Position numbers: made by a program. DNA of 64,000 nucleotides, from contig NZ_MWQY01000002.1 of assembly GCF_002087085.1 (NCBI RefSeq), forward strand, positions 1-64,000, read 5' to 3'. Below, piece by piece: positions 45,001 through 51,000 of the stretch; position 1 is the stretch's first letter; each line of letters starts with the position of its first letter.

Positions 45001-48000
45001 TCAGCTGGTCCTGGGCTTCCTGCAGTTCCTTGAGGGCCTGTTCCAGCTTCAGGTTACGCTGTTTCAGATCTTCTAAAAGGGTATCGTTGCTGCGACGGAC
45101 CATGGCGGAGAGAGAACGTATTACCGCAAGGGCGACTGCGGAGTTGTCGCGTATCAGCCGAAGGAATTCCTCCTCGTGAATCACAAGGGTCGTAACGGAG
45201 CTGCGGGCCTTGAGGGTCGCATATCTGGGCATGGCGTCCACCAGAGCCATCTCGCCGAAGGGTTTTCCCGGACCGTGCACAGTCAGGAGATCAGCATCCT
45301 GGGTCCCATAGCTTTTCCAGACCTCCACCTGCCCCTTCATCATGATAAAAAAGCGGTCCGCCGCATCTCCTTCCCTGAAAAGAATCTCCCCGGGAGCAAA
45401 GGACTCCTCCCGACAGTAACGGGCAAGCTCATCCAGATACTCGTTTTCCAGGTGGCTGAAAAAAGGAACGGTTTTAAGAAAACGGATATAATCCTGACTC
45501 ATCCTTTACTCCCGGAAAAGTGGTATAAAGACAGTCTATCAGCAACAACAAACCGGGTAAAGCTCATATATGAGCACCCATAGATGGCGCTGGTTTTGCT
45601 GCAGCCAGGGCGGTGAACAGCAATTTTTTGCCCTCCAACGAGTTGACACGCTCATAATCTCCGTGATATTTTGAGGCTCACACCGGGCTGTAGCGCAGTG
45701 GTTTAGCGTACTTGACTGGGGGTCAAGGGGTCGGCGGTTCAAATCCGCCCAGCCCGAAAAAAAGAGCGATCGGAATCTCCGGTCGCTCTTTTTTTCGGGC
45801 TTCCGGCGGTCATTCTCGGGATTTTCCCTTCGGGAAAACCCTGCCATGACCTTGGGCTTGCGAATTGCACAGCAATTCGCTGGGCCCAGCCCTCTGGATC
45901 ACTCTTCTGCAGAAAATCCGGGACTTCTTTTTCGGGCTTCTTAGCGTACTTTCGGCAGAATCCTATCGGGTTTTTGCTTTTTGTGACCACCCATAAAATC
46001 CTCCCCGAAATCCTTCACTGATAAACCAGATTTTTGAGGAAGACATAATTCAGGAAGACTTTTCCATTTTTCCAGGGCCGGGAAAAATAGACCGTAAGAG
46101 TACGATTACTTTTTCTGTTTATACAGAAGGTTTATTCACATGGTACAAGTGCTCATAAATCAAGCTTTTATCAACAAAGGGTGTAAATACTCCAGATAGC
46201 AATCAAAACATTCTAACGCCCAATAGATCAGATCATATCATCAACTTCTATTCTAAACCGGAAAAAAGTTTTAGCACGGTAGCCGAAGGATAATTTGATA
46301 GAGAGGCGATGCCATTGACCAATTCAATGGGGACTAGAGCGCTTTCATGTCGATAACTGAGTATTTTGGGGATTGTCGCCATAATCCTATCTACTCCGAT
46401 GAGATCTTCTCGTCTGTTTGGTTTGTTCTCATTATCAAGGTACTGACCAGTCGGTATATTGAGTACAAATAGATGATGAGGGCTCTGCTTGAGAAGTACC
46501 TTTTCACCATAGTTAGTTCTAAATCCATAGGGATACTTGGGATCACGCTTCCGTTGAACCTCTGAATGTATAAACTTATGAGTAAGAGGAGAAAACCTTG
46601 AAGGTGCGCCCTTTTCTAATGGCTCAACAAGATGCGCATAGCCTTTAAAGAAGTCAACGAATTTACCAGTTTTCTCCTGACCACATAGATGAATAGTCAC
46701 TCCAATACTTTTTGCTTTTGAGATAAAATTGCGTAGATTCGGTACAAGCTTTGAGTATTGTCCTCGGAGTGTTAACGGACCATCCTTTAGAAACAGAGTT
46801 TCTTTTAATACATGATGGTTTTTTTGCCAAAGGTATCTGATAGCTGTAAATAACATCATAGTTTCATGAATCATCATATATGCAGAAGCGAGGGTTTCAG
46901 ATGCAGAATCTTCTGACATTTCCATATGAAGACCTATGATATCAGTCAAAAAGATTACAGATTGACATTCAGGGCATTCTATCTGATCAGTATCATATTT
47001 CATTCCAGGTAATTCTGCATAACACTCGGGACACTCAAATGCTGGGGAGTTACTCTTTGTACCTTCCTCCCATTTCTGATAGACCACCCATTTGAGGGTT
47101 TTATATGGCTCGCCATCTAATTGGGGATCCCTAAAGGAGTCGTATATGAGCTTGCGCATCCCATACAACCAATCAGTGCCGTGAATCCGTATATTCTTAA
47201 CAGGAAAGACAGTTGCATGATGCTGAGCACTCTCAGACATCAGTTTTCTTAATTGGTTTGGATGAGGATAATCGGGATCGATTTGTTCGATTTTAGTCGG
47301 ATCTATCCTCATTAATGCTGTTTTAACAAATGACACTTCCCGTTTAGGATTACCTGAAGATGCAAGGTGCTGCAATGACCCATCTGAAGCGAAGATGTAT
47401 TTTAAAGGTCGCGCAAATTTATCAACCTCGAACCAATCGATATCGGGTGATGTAATACTCGACGCATCTGGGTGCTCAAACTGTTCAACCACTTGATTGA
47501 CAAACTCACTGTTCAAAACATCTAGATGCCCAAGTTTCGAAGCAGATTCGCCACTTAATCTCTGTCCTGCTTGATATGGCACTTTTTCCTCCTATTCAAA
47601 CTTATATGCTTGAATCGGAACTACAAAGCGATGGCTAAAGGTGAGCATCCGCATGTATCCAGGAGTTTTTGAGCGCATAATCTCGCTTCCAAGCCCTTCA
47701 TATGCAATCTGTACTCTCTCAAGCGACCGTACCTCGTCTTGTGACGATAGATGACCAACAAAGAAATTTTCGGTCTGAGCTAGTAATTCCTGTGATATGG
47801 TCGATGGCGATTGTGTAGAATACACCATTCCTATGTGAAACTTAGCACCTTCCTTTGCAAAGCGAGAATATACATCCGTAAATTCCTTGTTGTCTCGAGG
47901 AAAGAGATTATGCGCTTCCTCAAAATACAGTTGAACGAAATGCTCCGATAGGTTATTTGAGATAAACTTCTTCTCTTGGTTATTGAACACAGCTCGAGAT

Positions 48001-51000
48001 AGCATATCGGAGAAATAGCGTCGCACTTCATCGGTTGCATTTCCTAAATCCAGGATTACAGTTTGACCAGCGTCGATTAAATCCAAAATTTCTTTTTGGA
48101 AATCACCGGCGGACATAGAATGATAGATTATGAATGGACGAAGAATAACGGTTCCGGAACGACCTTGCTTTGGAAAAAGGAACTCAAGCATAGCAACATC
48201 ATCAATATCGAAGTAATCTTTTCCTCCAGACGATTTTAATTCTTTATCACCTGGGTTCTCCTTCCGAAAGCTATCAATTACTCTAAGTTCGTTAAGTAAC
48301 TCACTGAGGTTTTTAGGAGTATTGGGTACCTCTTGATCTGCATTACTATAGGCCTTTTCGCGCAATGTCTTTTTAAAGTGCGGATCATACCCAAATGGGG
48401 CCTCACCTACTTTTCCGCCCAAACGTGACAGACGTGATTCATCAGCTTTGAATCCGGCACTATGCAAAATTGCCCAATATATCTGTATTTTCCGTATCGA
48501 ACGTCTTTTTGGGCTTTGCTCCATATGTGGGATATCTTCAACATTAGGCAACTCGACGCTCATGAAGCTCTTTATATAGTCAGAAGTCTTATTTGCCTGA
48601 GTCAGAAAAGACTTTAGAATCGAAAGACCAGAATCAGGCTGTTCATAAAAATTAAGCTTTAACTGCTTTGCATAATCAGCCCCCTCTCGAGGATTCAACG
48701 CATAAACCTGACAACGTTCCGAGTACTTACTTCTAATTGAAATATTCCCATCCTGCGGATTATCATTGGCATATTCACCGTTTATATCAAATATGAGCTG
48801 TCCGACATCACGTTTCTCATCGGTAGCTTTAATCACGGCTTCTGCCAACAACTTAACAACATTTGATTTACCTAACCGAGTCTTACCAAACATCGCCGTT
48901 CGAAAACCTTGAAAATCTCTGACTGATATTTGGGCACTAACGTTGTGAGGACTAACATTGGCAAATGGAAGTCGGCACTCAGTCATTCTCAAATCACCAA
49001 TACTTATCTGACGTTCTTTTCTAACGGTCCCATTTACAATAAGGTCCAACAACTTTTGATCCGGAGAATAGATGCGGTATCGATGAGCACTAACGACCGT
49101 GTTAACATCTCCTGAAAAAGCCAGCTCCTCGGAATTTTCAATATCTGGATAAAACATACCGAGTACAGTAGTGTTAAGAGCTCCCCATTGGAGTTCCGAC
49201 TGGGTCCATCGGTCAATTTCGGGCATAGATTTCTTATGTAGCTCAAAATAGGTTTGTTGTACTTGTTGGCTTAAAGGCGTCGGGGCCACATCTTCCACTC
49301 GCAGAAGTGTGAAATGGGGAGGTATTCCATCAAGTTTATCGGGTAGCATTACCAAGAATGATCCTTTTGGAAGTCCGCCGACCGCTCGTTTATACGGATC
49401 TGAAGTGATTATCCTTGCAGTATCGTATGACATCTCCATAGCATAACCGACAAATCGCATCTCATTGTAATGCTCAGACTCTTCAGCCTTCTTCTCAGTT
49501 TCCAAGAAATCATAGACCATTCTGAGAGGATTTTCTTGAAATTCCGCCTTCTGAATAAAGTTAAGCATTATAATTTATCCTCCAAAGCAAGATTGTGTAT
49601 AATGACTTCTTCATAACGGCCTCGATGATTAGACTTAGCTGCTATAGTACTTGGTCGAGTTACAGTCTCGATACTAAAAAATGAACTATAGAGGTCGACA
49701 ACTTGAGGATGATTCGCATTTGTGGCAACAACAACTGCCCCTCGCTTAGCAGCACTAATCAGTGCTATTGAGAGTCGAACTTGATCCTCCCAGGAAAAAA
49801 GCACCTCGTTATATTTTAAAAAGCCATTATTATTGTGACTGACAGTATACGGAGGATCAGCAAAGATGAAGTCCCCCTTCCCTGCTTTATGGATAGGCTC
49901 TTCAAAATCGCAAACTTTTAGTTCAGCATTAGCTAAGAGTTCTGCCCACAAGACAAAATCATCACTAGGAAGAACCACCGCAGTCTTAGTTCCCATCGGA
50001 ACATTGAACCTACCCTGACGGTTAACTCGATAGATTCCATTAAAGCAGGTTCGATTCAGATAAAGCATGCGAACAGCTTTATCCATTTTTGCTCCTGGGC
50101 TCTGCCCTCGATACTGATAATAGAAAAGTCTAGAGTGTTGGCTATGTAAAACCTCAAGGCGCTTTTGTAGTTCATGGGGATGTTGGCGTATCTGAAAATA
50201 TAGATTAATCAGCTCTTCATTCGTATCACTAAGTAAAGCCCTCTTCGGTTCAACCGCCGCGAATGCTGCTCCCCCCCCAAGAAAGGGCTCGATATATTTT
50301 CCAGAGAAACGGTATCTGAAAAACTCAGGATGGGATTGAATTAGCCAACGTTTACCACCGGCCCATTTAAGAAAAGGTTGTAATTGTTTTTTTTGTGAAG
50401 AGACAATCTTATTCAAACACTGATCCTCATTATCTCGGCTCTGTTTCTTTAACTGGACTCATCTTATAGCGCTTATCATTAATCCTCGCAGAGGTAAATG
50501 AGTATTCTATTTTCATCTGAACAATTGGATCAGAGAGCATGTTATCACTATTCACTTCGACTATGAGAAAAGCCCCATCTTTCTTATGAATAGAGAAGTC
50601 AGAATAATAACTTCTTAGATCATGCCTCTCAGGAACTATATAGCTTATCTTGAAATTAGATTGTCTAATAATCAGCATCCTGGTATACCTCACTTTTTCA
50701 ACATCAGCGTGGCTAAAGTGATGTTTTGAAGTATTAGTCCAGCACTGGCTATGAGTCGAAGCATTATTACTCCATATGACAACTTTACTTTTTTGCTGCT
50801 GAATATTCTGGTTCACATTTTTCTTCCCTACCCCTATCTTTCCATGTACAATAAAAAGCCAGAGCTCGGAGTGGTAAGACATTCTAAGTTTTGTCTGATA
50901 CTTACTACAGACCTTGAATCCAGAATCAGTTTTCACCTAATTTAAACCATTATAATATGTACTCATAATCAGATTACCACATATTTGGAGTAAATGTAAT

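What a model noticed while it worked through the whole genome (the two positions that open the first line are those of the whole stretch)
46248..50678. Dam methylase + HerA-like ATPase + NurA-like nuclease: a three-gene, horizontally spread restriction-modification-like m [...]
In a low-GC islet next to a tRNA-Pro gene lie four co-oriented genes: an 82-aa ORF, a Dam-family (DpnII-like) adenine methylase, a 658-aa HerA/DUF87 ATPase and a 444-aa protein without any family that folds as a NurA nuclease with an inserted zinc ribbon; the last three are found in the same order, at 43-60% identity, in genomes of more than ten phyla. I read the trio as a new kind of R-M/defence system in which a HerA-NurA translocase-nuclease is the restriction arm and N6-adenine methylation marks self: the methylation counterpart of the recently described phosphorothioate Tdp system (TdpC + TdpAB, target GATC). 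It would add a widespread class to the known R-M types and a new ATP-driven nu [...]
Evidence so far: Genes g01485-g01482, GC 0.35-0.42 against 0.55 for the genome. PADLOC: HerA models E 4e-22 on g01483, type II MTase 6e-92 on g01484, none on g01482/g01485. g01482 family: 1279 proteins at E<=1e-5, no Pfam on any of the 120 listed, one UniRef name 'NurA domain-containing'. 61 loci in GTDB species genomes (Spirochaetota, Desulfobacterota, Actinomycetota, Gammaproteobacteria, Bacteroidota, Cyanobacteria, Deinococcota, Chloroflexota, Acidobacteriota, Chlamydiota, Bacillota and others by record title; call 124); of 45 loci with a full-length match and at least 3 kb upstream, 43 have the HerA gene directly upstream and 39 also the Dam gene before it. 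AlphaFold of g01482 (12-row alignment) pLDDT 80 [...]
(Added by a program. Inside this text positions count along the whole contig: contig position 1 is position 1 of the stretch shown here. "Call 12" and the like, gene names such as g00115 and contig names such as C1 are that model's own, and its searches are not shown. The text may have been shortened before it was handed on; [...] marks where a part breaks off. The agent that wrote the report below was given it as the finding of a first reader that could run no searches.)

Follow-up and report, generated by a model that had tools for sequence, protein, structure and literature searches.

The report
Methylase-linked HerA–NurA restriction-like module
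A horizontally acquired three-gene islet pairs a Dam DNA methylase with an ATP-driven motor and a nuclease that most resemble the TdpA and TdpB proteins of the phosphorothioate defence system Tdp, so it is probably a methylation-based relative of that system, though its function is untested.

Summary
Three tightly packed minus-strand genes sit in a low-GC islet beside tRNA-Pro: a Dam methylase, a 658-aa HerA-type ATPase and a 444-aa protein with no family hit.

Among solved structures, the ATPase is closest to TdpA by sequence (E 4e-23) and by fold. The 444-aa protein folds most like TdpB, then like NurA nucleases.

The order Dam–HerA–NurA-like recurs in 66 of 71 species genomes that have enough upstream DNA, across many phyla and one Asgard archaeon. 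It was found in 0 of 60 relatives of the host.

New here: more distant HerA–NurA-like pairs sit next to other D12 methylases, next to N6_N4 methylases, or next to a PAPS-reductase gene, which I read as a TdpC-like Tdp arrangement. One nuclease core therefore carries exchangeable DNA-modification genes, which is the hallmark of restriction-modification (R-M) logic. A zinc-ribbon insert occurs only in methylase-linked nucleases.

Corrections: the 82-aa "fourth gene" is the 3' remnant of a helicase-nuclease gene. A Thermus NurA-like/TdtA/N4-N6-methylase operon was already published, with a DNA-donation phenotype.

Verdict: a new variant of a known kind. Defence and methyl sensing are inferred, not shown.

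The parts
49568..50416 (-). Dam-family (D12 class) N6-adenine DNA methyltransferase, 282 aa, of the R-M-linked DpnII M1 type. The DPPY motif is at 49847-49858.
   Evidence: Pfam PF02086 3.3e-41, TIGR00571 204 bits, PADLOC MTase_II 5.6e-92 against orphan MTase 1.3e-57. Best PDB match is M1.DpnII 2dpm at 9.4e-50, against E. coli Dam at 1.5e-25. DPPY coordinates checked.
47592..49568 (-). HerA/FtsK-family ATPase, 658 aa, TdpA-like. Walker A GKTRLGKS is at 48864-48887 and Walker B YFEEAH at 47910-47927.
   Evidence: Pfam DUF87 2.2e-11, PADLOC HerA 4.3e-22. Best PDB sequence match is TdpA 8wet_A at 4e-23, next HerA 8xau at 3.7e-10. The AF2 model has pLDDT 74.7. Foldseek ranks 1-6 are TdpA chains, E 7.5e-22 to 1.8e-19. 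Both Walker motifs are invariant in 24 sequences. Coordinates checked.
46248..47582 (-). NurA-fold (RNase H-like) nuclease, 444 aa, TdpB-like. Candidate catalytic residues are D67 (47382-47384), D267 (46782-46784) and E303 (46674-46676). N423 (46314-46316) stands where relatives have His.
   Evidence: No Pfam, PADLOC or NCBIfam hit and no PDB sequence hit. AF2 pLDDT 83.9. Foldseek top match is TdpB 8wfd_G (E 3.6e-8, TM 0.66 on the target), followed by NurA of T. kodakarensis, D. radiodurans, P. furiosus and S. solfataricus. D67-G68-S69, D267-G268 and Q302-E303-K304 are invariant in 26 sequences. The homodimer model scores 0.50 against a best control of 0.00.
46965..47033 (-). Zinc-ribbon insert of the nuclease (CPEC-15 residues-CPEC, residues 184-206).
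   Evidence: The four Cys are invariant in 26 sequences. The insert is present in 8 of 17 methylase-linked or plasmid relatives as two CxxC motifs and in the other 9 as other Cys patterns. The whole ~60-residue segment is absent from the two PAPS-reductase-linked (TdpB-like) proteins and from a Pfam-NurA protein.
50430..50820 (-). Remnant (3' end, in two frames) of a helicase-nuclease gene.
   Evidence: tblastn: residues 401-521 of the ORF L002:80-1702 match window 50454-50820 in two frames (43-46% identity, E 2e-19). Residues 769-852 of the 1022-aa ORF L006:2093-5161 match at 42% identity. That part carries a TnsA-like endonuclease N domain in L002 and L006. Where L002 reads EVK, the window reads EVN.
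45684..45757 (+). tRNA-Pro(GGG) at the edge of the islet.
   Evidence: ARAGORN.
45788..45915 (.). Left copy of a diverged direct repeat that brackets the islet.
   Evidence: the repeat finder families D1-D3. Further copies of this repeat elsewhere in the genome.
51346..51505 (.). Right copy or copies of the same repeat (74-89% identity to the left copy).

Best explanation
The islet encodes a three-gene, R-M-like defence module. The Dam-family methylase puts N6-methyladenine on host DNA, probably at GATC, as the self mark. The HerA-type ATPase, presumably a hexameric dsDNA translocase, and the NurA-fold nuclease, presumably a dimer docked on it, form a TdpAB-like motor-nuclease. This complex loads on DNA and degrades it processively, unless the mark stops it.

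Shown here:
- the gene set, with intact catalytic motifs;
- the closest structural relatives, TdpA and TdpB;
- conservation of the trio as one unit;
- horizontal spread;
- exchange of the modification gene among relatives.

Inferred:
- complex formation between the ATPase and the nuclease;
- restriction of unmethylated DNA;
- GATC as the target;
- how the methyl group is read. My guess is the zinc-ribbon insert of the nuclease, acting as a brake signal by analogy with phosphorothioate in Tdp.
For: 1. The ATPase matches TdpA far better than any other solved HerA: phmmer E 4e-23 against 3.7e-10, and Foldseek ranks 1-6. The nuclease model matches TdpB best (E 3.6e-8), then NurAs.

2. Of 71 loci with at least 2.9 kb upstream, 70 have HerA adjacent and 66 also have Dam in the same order. 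The genes overlap or nearly touch.

3. Modification-gene swapping.
- In 251 genomes of one class, 19 have a HerA-like match at E<=1e-15. I examined 17 of their loci.
- 2 pair HerA and a NurA-like gene with a D12 methylase.
- 8 pair them with an N6_N4 methylase.
- 5 have a PAPS-reductase gene. Two of these have the full order PAPS-reductase, a ~400-aa protein, then HerA.
- Two plasmids, one bacterial and one archaeal, also pair the genes with N6_N4 methylases.

4. On a HerA tree the Dam-linked proteins form one clade (15 sequences, support 0.93) and the PAPS-reductase-linked ones another (4 sequences, support 1.0). All methylase-linked ones group together (26 sequences, support 0.99).

5. The ATPase, nuclease and methylase motifs are invariant.

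6. The module was found in 1 of 61 genomes, the host alone, and in 0 of 5 genomes of the same genus. It lies in a low-GC islet at a variable site.

7. Of 37 loci whose four nearest ORFs were scanned, 18 have a PADLOC hit at E<=1e-10. That leaves 14 after dropping four that Pfam shows to be IstB, an ABC transporter, RecF and UvrA. The closest relative, L001, abuts a type I restriction subunit.

8. Tdp is listed as a PT-based R-M-type defence with a GpsATC consensus (PMC12914056 and PMC13223576, passages read).
Against: - There is no experiment on any Dam-linked member.
- The nearest methylase-linked relative that has been studied, the Thermus ICETh1 operon (NurA-like TTC1878, TdtA, and the N4-N6 methylase TTC1880), is needed for DNA donation. 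Loss of its methylase had only minor effects on transfer (PMC5365140 and PMC7767461, passages read).
- As I recall the Tdp abstract (not read here), Tdp senses sulfur on the backbone through the translocase. A methyl group in the major groove cannot be read that way, so the sensing step has no demonstrated precedent.
- N423 stands where NurA relatives have His.
- The nuclease has no sequence-level match to TdpB or NurA in the PDB.
- The PADLOC neighbour count has no matched background control.
- The Nostoc plasmid relative has no methylase annotated nearby, although PLSDB gene tables are incomplete.
- The host has at least two other D12 methylase genes, so Dam-type methylation may not depend on this islet.
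Confidence: 0.6

Rival explanations
1. Defence without methyl-controlled restriction. The HerA-nuclease pair is triggered by something else, such as a phage protein or a DNA end, as in SIR2-HerA or DUF4297-HerA. The methylase would then serve another purpose, for example protection from GATC-cutting enzymes or regulation.
For: The other solved defence HerAs are the next-best fold matches after TdpA, and those systems carry no modification gene. The Nostoc plasmid relative has HTH + DUF87 + NurA-like + AbiTii and no annotated methylase.
Against: A modification gene is present in 66 of 71 Dam-clade loci. Relatives replace it with another modification gene rather than losing it. That pattern is hard to explain unless the modification is functionally coupled to the pair.
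Confidence: 0.15
2. DNA donation or transfer machinery, as in Thermus ICETh1. The nuclease and translocase would process and pump chromosomal DNA out of the cell, and the methylase would be accessory.
For: In T. thermophilus HB27, loss of TdtA abolished DNA donation, and loss of the NurA-like gene in the same operon reduced it by 4-5 orders of magnitude. The operon also holds an N4-N6 methylase (PMC5365140 and PMC7767461, passages read).
Against: - The window's islet has no integrase and no type IIG enzyme. Pfam found no such domain in the ORFs scanned.
- Neighbours in other genomes vary, and many are defence genes.
- I could not obtain a TdtA sequence, so TdtA is not placed on my tree. Whether it belongs to the same clade is untested.
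Confidence: 0.08
3. DNA double-strand-break repair, the canonical HerA-NurA end-resection role, with a neighbouring methylase that is unrelated.
For: The nuclease has a NurA fold and the ATPase is HerA-type. NurA-HerA pairs in Deinococcus and Thermus have been studied as repair factors (review PMC13748450, passages read).
Against: - The module was not found in 60 of 60 relatives searched.
- It lies in a low-GC islet.
- No mre11 or rad50 gene lies beside it.
- It is strictly linked to a methylase and sits in defence-rich neighbourhoods.
- Recent work on archaeal HerA-NurA also leans towards defence (PMC12977600, passages read).
Confidence: 0.05

Closest known systems
Tdp system (TdpABC; An et al., Nat Chem Biol 2025; PDB 8wet, 8wfd, 8y1k)
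   Same: It has a HerA-family ATPase and a NurA-fold nuclease next to one DNA-modification gene. Both window proteins have their best solved match in TdpA and TdpB. The reported Tdp consensus, GpsATC, contains the canonical Dam site (PMC12914056, passages read).
   Different: - The modification gene is a Dam methylase, not a PAPS-reductase-like gene of the kind I take to be TdpC. No PAPS_reduct domain was found in the islet ORFs scanned.
- The ATPase is 658 aa against 586. The nuclease is 444 aa against a 358-residue chain.
- The nuclease carries a zinc-ribbon insert that the PAPS-reductase-linked proteins lack.
- The nuclease has no detectable sequence similarity to TdpB.
- On the HerA tree the methylase-linked proteins are a separate, larger group.
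- The paper itself was not readable.
Thermus thermophilus ICETh1 tdtA operon (Tth111II/TthHB27I, NurA-like TTC1878, TdtA TTC1879, N4-N6 methylase TTC1880)
   Same: It combines a NurA-family nuclease, a hexameric HerA/FtsK-family ATPase and a DNA methylase in one operon, on a low-GC mobile element (PMC5365140, passages read).
   Different: - The methylase family is PF01555, not D12.
- The gene order is nuclease, then ATPase, then methylase.
- A type IIG enzyme and an integrase are also present.
- The published role is DNA donation in transjugation, not defence.
- Sequence relationship to the window's proteins was not tested, because no TdtA sequence was available to me.
Canonical NurA-HerA (archaea, Deinococcus, Thermus)
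   Same: The nuclease has an RNase H-like NurA fold with DG motifs I and II, a predicted dimer and a HerA-type motor (motifs as given in PMC13748450).
   Different: - The window protein has no Pfam NurA hit.
- It carries a zinc-ribbon insert.
- It is linked to a methylase and has no mre11 or rad50 neighbour.
- It has a sporadic, horizontally spread distribution.
DpnII-type type II R-M (M1.DpnII)
   Same: The methylase is most like M1.DpnII (E 9.4e-50) and like R-M-linked rather than orphan Dam models.
   Different: There is no type II endonuclease. The candidate restriction arm is an ATPase plus an RNase H-fold nuclease.
SIR2-HerA and DUF4297-HerA anti-phage systems
   Same: A HerA hexamer is coupled to an effector. 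These HerAs are the next-best fold matches after TdpA, and PADLOC HerA models hit the ATPase.
   Different: The effector is a NurA-fold nuclease, not SIR2 or DUF4297, and those systems carry no modification gene.

Membership tests
Tdp (TdpABC) system | TdpA-type HerA-family ATPase | tested here: met
   Best PDB sequence match is 8wet_A TdpA at E 4e-23, covering residues 500-654 only. Foldseek ranks 1-6 are TdpA chains. Walker A and B are invariant.
Tdp (TdpABC) system | TdpB-type NurA-fold nuclease | tested here: met
   Met at fold level only. Foldseek top match is 8wfd_G at E 3.6e-8, TM 0.55 on the query and 0.66 on the target. There is no sequence-level match.
Tdp (TdpABC) system | TdpC, the single-gene phosphorothioate synthase. 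I take it to be PAPS-reductase-like from the neighbours of TdpA-like genes. The paper was not read. | tested here: not met
   The islet ORFs were scanned with Pfam. A D12 methylase stands in that place and no PAPS_reduct domain was found.
Tdp (TdpABC) system | Anti-phage activity, with modification protecting self DNA | not testable with these tools
   Needs phage and transformation assays.
NurA nuclease family (Pfam PF09376) | Match to the family model | tested here: not met
   The window protein has 0 Pfam hits at E<=0.01. Relatives it matches by tblastn at E 1e-12 to 5e-32 do reach PF09376: L109 at 5.1e-11, L110 at 1.4e-5 and L121 at 1.1e-5.
NurA nuclease family (Pfam PF09376) | RNase H-like fold with DG motifs I and II and a C-terminal A-H motif III (motifs as given in PMC13748450) | tested here: inconclusive
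   The fold matches. D67-G68 and D267-G268 are invariant. At the motif III position the window has N423, and relatives have H, N or D.
NurA nuclease family (Pfam PF09376) | Toroidal homodimer | tested here: inconclusive
   The homodimer model has a median score of 0.50 against a best control of 0.00. The runs share at least 71% of contacts and the partner's pLDDT is at least 78. That mark was reached by 20 of 30 proteins solved as pairs of one chain and by 1 of 23 solved as single chains. NurA dimers are solved, so the pass may reflect likeness. A ring shape was not checked.
Type II R-M (DpnII-like) | Cognate methylase with the DPPY and FxGxG motifs | tested here: met
Type II R-M (DpnII-like) | ATP-independent type II endonuclease next to the methylase | tested here: not met
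   No REase model hits any islet ORF in Pfam, PADLOC or NCBIfam.
ICETh1 tdtA-type DNA-donation operon | Location on an ICE with an integrase and a type IIG R-M enzyme; N4-N6 (PF01555) methylase | tested here: not met
   No integrase or IIG domain was found in the islet ORFs scanned, and the methylase is D12. Sequence kinship with TdtA was not tested.

The most novel reading that the evidence does not exclude
The HerA-NurA-like pair is the shared restriction engine of a broad class of R-M-like systems that use at least three self marks: Dam/D12 m6A, N6_N4-type methylation and phosphorothioate. In this class the mark does not block a site-specific cut. Instead it brakes an end-loading, processive translocase-nuclease, playing a role like Chi for RecBCD. 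In the methylase-linked branch the mark is read by the zinc-ribbon insert of the nuclease, which the phosphorothioate branch lacks. The Thermus 'transjugation' operon would be a member whose DNA-donation phenotype is a by-product of this activity.
Probability: 0.3. Interest if true: 0.8.

Novelty: new variant of a known kind. Interest (0 to 1): 0.65.

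Why it matters
Tdp was described in 2025 as a phosphorothioate system of extreme thermophiles. 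If the reading here is right, its motor-nuclease is one branch of a much larger, mostly methylation-based group.

- The Dam branch alone was found 116 times among GTDB species genomes and comprises 1851 protein clusters at 90% identity.
- The wider nuclease family has 766 clusters at 50% identity.
- PADLOC 2.0.0 (2023), Pfam and NCBIfam all give no hit for the nuclease.

This would add an ATP-driven, RNase H-fold restriction arm to the R-M repertoire. It would provide a natural set of swaps (three modification chemistries on one engine) for asking how a translocase-nuclease reads a self mark. It would also prompt a second look at the Thermus TdtA operon.

The module is compact, at three genes and 4.2 kb, and can be tested directly in E. 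coli K-12 dam+ and dam- strains.

Tried and rejected
- Sequence searches of the 444-aa protein against the PDB gave only chance-level hits. The single sequence gave E 0.65. The 26-row profile gave 3 hits at E>=0.15, two of them zinc-ribbon ribosomal proteins.
- The phage collection (tblastn, 50,697 records) had no match. The plasmid collection had only 5 distant matches at 24-27% identity.
- I looked for a conserved fourth gene. The 119 small plus-strand ORFs upstream of Dam in the loci form no shared family, apart from the helicase-nuclease remnant group of 4. Pfam on 148 flanking ORFs shows no recurrent partner. I therefore rejected a controller or HTH protein as part of the core.
- I checked GATC depletion as a footprint and found none. 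Observed over expected is 1.44 in the window outside the islet and 0.93 inside it, on a mononucleotide model.
- Promoter and terminator scans were at or below shuffle expectation (17 against 13.7, and 2 against 4.4) and were not used.
- I considered MADS (weak PADLOC hits to mad8 at 3e-9 and mad2 at 3e-4) and PD-Lambda-5_B (4.7e-9 on Dam). I rejected both as generic ATPase or methylase similarity.
- Literature searches for a published Dam + HerA + NurA trio returned no paper describing one. The An et al. 2025 paper is not held, so it may mention methylase-linked homologues.
- The first tree script, using treekit, got no answer from the machine. I replaced it with MAFFT plus FastTree.
- The root of that tree, a NurA-HerA-DruA locus (L117), is my choice and is not tested.

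Full report
**What is there**

On the minus strand lie three tightly packed ORFs:
- 49568-50416 (282 aa);
- 47592-49568 (658 aa), which shares one base with the first;
- 46248-47582 (444 aa), which starts 9 nt after the second.

They sit in a stretch of GC 0.35-0.44 (46000-51499), against 0.49-0.58 around it. The stretch begins just past tRNA-Pro(GGG) at 45684-45757.

The 282-aa protein is a Dam-family D12 methylase.
- It matches Pfam at 3.3e-41, TIGR00571 at 204 bits and PADLOC MTase_II at 5.6e-92.
- It has intact FxGxG and DPPY motifs.
- It is nearer to M1.DpnII (9.4e-50) than to E. coli Dam (1.5e-25).

The 658-aa protein is a HerA/DUF87 ATPase. Its Walker A (GKTRLGKS) and Walker B (YFEEAH) motifs are invariant in 24 homologues.

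The 444-aa protein has no hit in Pfam, PADLOC or NCBIfam.

**The fourth gene is a remnant**

One is the C-terminal part of a contig-cut 540-aa ORF that lies directly upstream of Dam in L002. The other is residues 769-852 of a 1022-aa protein in the same position in L006. In the window the similarity runs over 50454-50820 in two reading frames.

In L002 and L006 this part carries a TnsA-like, PD-(D/E)XK-type endonuclease domain. Where L002 reads EVK, the window reads EVN.

The ORF is therefore the decayed 3' end of a helicase-nuclease gene. Where a neighbouring methylase is also present, as in L006, L059 and L068, the pair looks like a type III-like R-M system. It is not a component of the trio. 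No other small upstream ORF is shared among the loci.

**What the two unknown proteins are**

Among all PDB sequences the ATPase matches TdpA best: 8wet_A at E 4e-23, against 3.7e-10 for the next HerA. Its AlphaFold model (pLDDT 74.7) has TdpA chains as Foldseek ranks 1-6 (E 7.5e-22 to 1.8e-19). The HerAs of the anti-phage SIR2-HerA and DUF4297-HerA systems follow.

The 444-aa protein has no sequence-level PDB match. Its model (26-row alignment, pLDDT 83.9, pTM 0.84) matches TdpB of the TdpAB-DNA complex best: 8wfd_G at E 3.6e-8, TM 0.66 on the target. Next come the NurA nucleases of T. kodakarensis, D. radiodurans, P. furiosus and S. solfataricus, and TM1739.

The family alignment has several invariant features:
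- D67-G68-S69 in the first strand;
- D267-G268 at the end of the fourth strand;
- Q302-E303-K304;
- a CPxC...CxxC zinc ribbon at residues 184-206.

The two DG motifs are those given for NurA motifs I and II in a 2026 review (PMC13748450, passages read).

More distant relatives that the window protein hits by tblastn (E 1e-12 to 5e-32) do reach Pfam NurA. This gives a transitive sequence link to the family.

A homodimer model passes the tool's mark, with a median score of 0.50 against a best control of 0.00. The runs share at least 71% of their contacts and the partner's pLDDT is at least 78. That mark was reached by 20 of 30 proteins solved as pairs of one chain and by 1 of 23 solved as single chains. 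NurA dimers are solved, so this pass shows likeness rather than proof.

**Conservation and spread**

The nuclease family has 1851 clusters at 90% identity with E<=1e-5. It has 766, 531 and 170 clusters at 50% identity with E<=1e-3, 1e-10 and 1e-30.

In GTDB species genomes 116 stretches encode a relative, and 80 were kept. Of the 71 kept loci with at least 2.9 kb upstream, 70 have the HerA gene directly upstream and 66 also have Dam just before it.

The five exceptions:
- L035, L041 and L076 have two or more extra genes between Dam and HerA, among them DndB-like and ParB_N proteins.
- L043 has a frameshifted HerA and a different D12 methylase on the other strand.
- L063 is decayed.

By record title the hosts span Spirochaetota, Desulfobacterota, Actinomycetota, Pseudomonadota, Bacteroidota, Bacillota, Chloroflexota, Planctomycetota, Deinococcota, Cyanobacteriota, Nitrospirota, Saccharibacteria, Atribacteria, Chlamydiota, Acidobacteriota and a Heimdallarchaeote. 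The HerA tree does not follow that taxonomy.

Around the host, the nuclease gene was found in 1 of 61 genomes searched, the host itself, and in 0 of 5 genomes of the same genus.

The islet is bracketed by diverged copies (74-89% identity) of a repeat that also occurs elsewhere in the genome. In one congener the two flanks lie 26 kb apart. The site is therefore variable.

**The key new result: the modification gene is exchangeable**

Plasmid relatives at 24-27% identity show three arrangements:
- Deferribacter pDF308 has an N6_N4 methylase, then DUF87 (split by an IS), then a NurA-like gene.
- A Halorarius plasmid has DUF87, then a NurA-like gene, then an N6_N4 methylase.
- Nostoc pANSO36C has an HTH gene, DUF87, a NurA-like gene and AbiTii, with no methylase annotated.

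I then searched 251 genomes of the class that holds L047 (record title: Trueperaceae). Nineteen have a HerA-like match at E<=1e-15. I examined 17 further loci:
- 2 have HerA and a NurA-like gene with a D12 methylase (L105, L106).
- 8 have an N6_N4 methylase (L108-L114 except L107, and L121).
- 5 have a PAPS-reductase gene. L115 and L116 show the order PAPS-reductase, a ~400-aa protein, then a ~620-aa HerA. I read this as the Tdp arrangement. L118-L120 have the PAPS-reductase gene and HerA with a gap between them.
- 1 has NurA, HerA and DruA (L117).
- 1 has no assignable neighbours (L107).

On a FastTree of 31 HerA proteins, with the L117 root chosen by me, three groupings stand out:
- The PAPS-reductase-linked proteins form one clade (4 sequences, support 1.0).
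- All methylase-linked proteins form another (26 sequences, support 0.99).
- Within that clade the Dam-linked proteins, including the window's, form one short-branched clade (15 sequences, support 0.93).

Replacement of the modification gene while the motor-nuclease pair is kept is what one expects of a restriction module and its self-marking partner.

**A structural difference that tracks the mark**

The zinc-ribbon segment of about 60 residues is present in all methylase-linked nucleases aligned, either as two CxxC motifs or as other Cys clusters. It is absent from the two PAPS-reductase-linked proteins and from the Pfam-NurA protein of L117. It is a candidate reader of base methylation. This is inference only.

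**Context**

Neighbours vary and no further gene is conserved. Of 37 loci scanned (two ORFs on each side), 18 have a PADLOC hit at E<=1e-10. That leaves 14 after removing four that Pfam shows to be IstB, an ABC transporter, RecF and UvrA.

The hits include type II and type III R-M, Septu PtuAB, SIR2/ThsA-like, AbiU, GajB-like, dGTPase and DpdB proteins. L001, the closest relative, abuts a type I restriction subunit, and L020 lies between GmrSD and SNF2/PLD genes. There is no matched background control, so I say only that this is consistent with defence islands.

**Mechanism proposed**

Dam marks host DNA, probably at GATC. The E. coli Dam K9, N120, R124 and P134 equivalents are kept, while L122 is I and Y138 is K. 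The roles of those residues are recalled from memory, not checked.

The HerA hexamer and the NurA-like dimer form a TdpAB-like complex that translocates along DNA and degrades it. The self mark prevents this on host DNA.

As I recall the Tdp abstract (the paper was not readable), phosphorothioate inhibits TdpAB translocation and nuclease activity on self DNA. By analogy, methylated sites may act as a brake. A methyl group lies in the major groove, however, so a different reader is needed.

**What is known, and novelty**

Tdp is published and its structures are deposited (PDB titles; PMC12914056 and PMC13223576, passages read).

A NurA-like, TdtA and N4-N6-methylase operon on Thermus ICETh1 was published in 2017. 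Loss of TdtA abolished DNA donation in transjugation, and loss of the NurA-like gene cut it by 4-5 orders of magnitude (PMC5365140, passages read). Loss of its methylase had minor effects (PMC7767461, passages read).

Two comparative-genomic papers on HerA/FtsK 'capture' defence systems do not contain the word NurA: the listing shows 0 occurrences in PMC10853773, and one search shows 0 in PMC12839542.

Seven full-text searches found no paper describing a Dam-HerA-NurA trio.

I therefore rate this a new variant of a known kind. It is not a Tdp member, because the defining modification gene differs. It probably works like Tdp.

**Verdict**

Confidence in the R-M-like defence reading is 0.6, and interest is 0.65.

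Noticed in passing
window 45788-45915 and 51346-51505; also G000 contigs C16, C23, C31 and C12:225360-225825: A dispersed intergenic repeat of about 50-130 nt brackets the islet and recurs in the host genome and in congeners. It may mark recombination or insertion hot spots.
   Followed up: partly
window 50680-51345: Low-GC DNA between the gene remnant and the right repeat has no assignable gene. The 105-aa plus-strand ORF at 51151-51468 has no Pfam hit.
   Followed up: partly
window 44327-45502 (-): A histidine kinase with an N-terminal cyclic-nucleotide-binding domain (cNMP_binding + HisKA + HATPase_c) lies next to the tRNA-Pro gene.
   Followed up: no
L006:226-5161, L059:315-5211, L068:161-5196, L002:80-1702: In several loci a type III-like R-M pair (an N6_N4 Mod and a ~1000-1240-aa helicase-nuclease Res) ends right at the start of Dam, in the same orientation. 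The window keeps only the last ~120 codons of such a gene. This may be a recurrent two-system island or a functional coupling.
   Followed up: partly
L035:3468-5169, L058:9410-11229, L041:3869-5644: DndB/DpdB-like or ParB_N proteins, each with a small partner ORF, are inserted between Dam and HerA (L035, L041) or lie just downstream of the nuclease (L058). They may be accessory regulators.
   Followed up: no
L117:5737-9882: A Pfam-NurA protein (413 aa) and a 558-aa HerA are followed by a DruA-family gene (Pfam DruA, 7.7e-61). I have not seen this NurA-HerA association with a Druantia component described.
   Followed up: no
L114:123-6388 and L113:3124-5970: HerA-NurA-like-N6_N4 methylase modules lie next to a trio of TerB, a BrxC/D-like ATPase and a DEAD helicase (Shango-like), and next to a pPIWI_RE Argonaute-like gene. 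Both are further defence-island contexts.
   Followed up: no
L068:9377-9868: A SeqA gene lies directly downstream of the trio in a Halieaceae genome. That host already uses Dam/SeqA, which raises the question of how the module's mark differs from housekeeping Dam methylation there.
   Followed up: no
G000 C45:55389-56174 and C9:314-1234: The host genome carries at least two further D12-class methylase genes outside the window.
   Followed up: no
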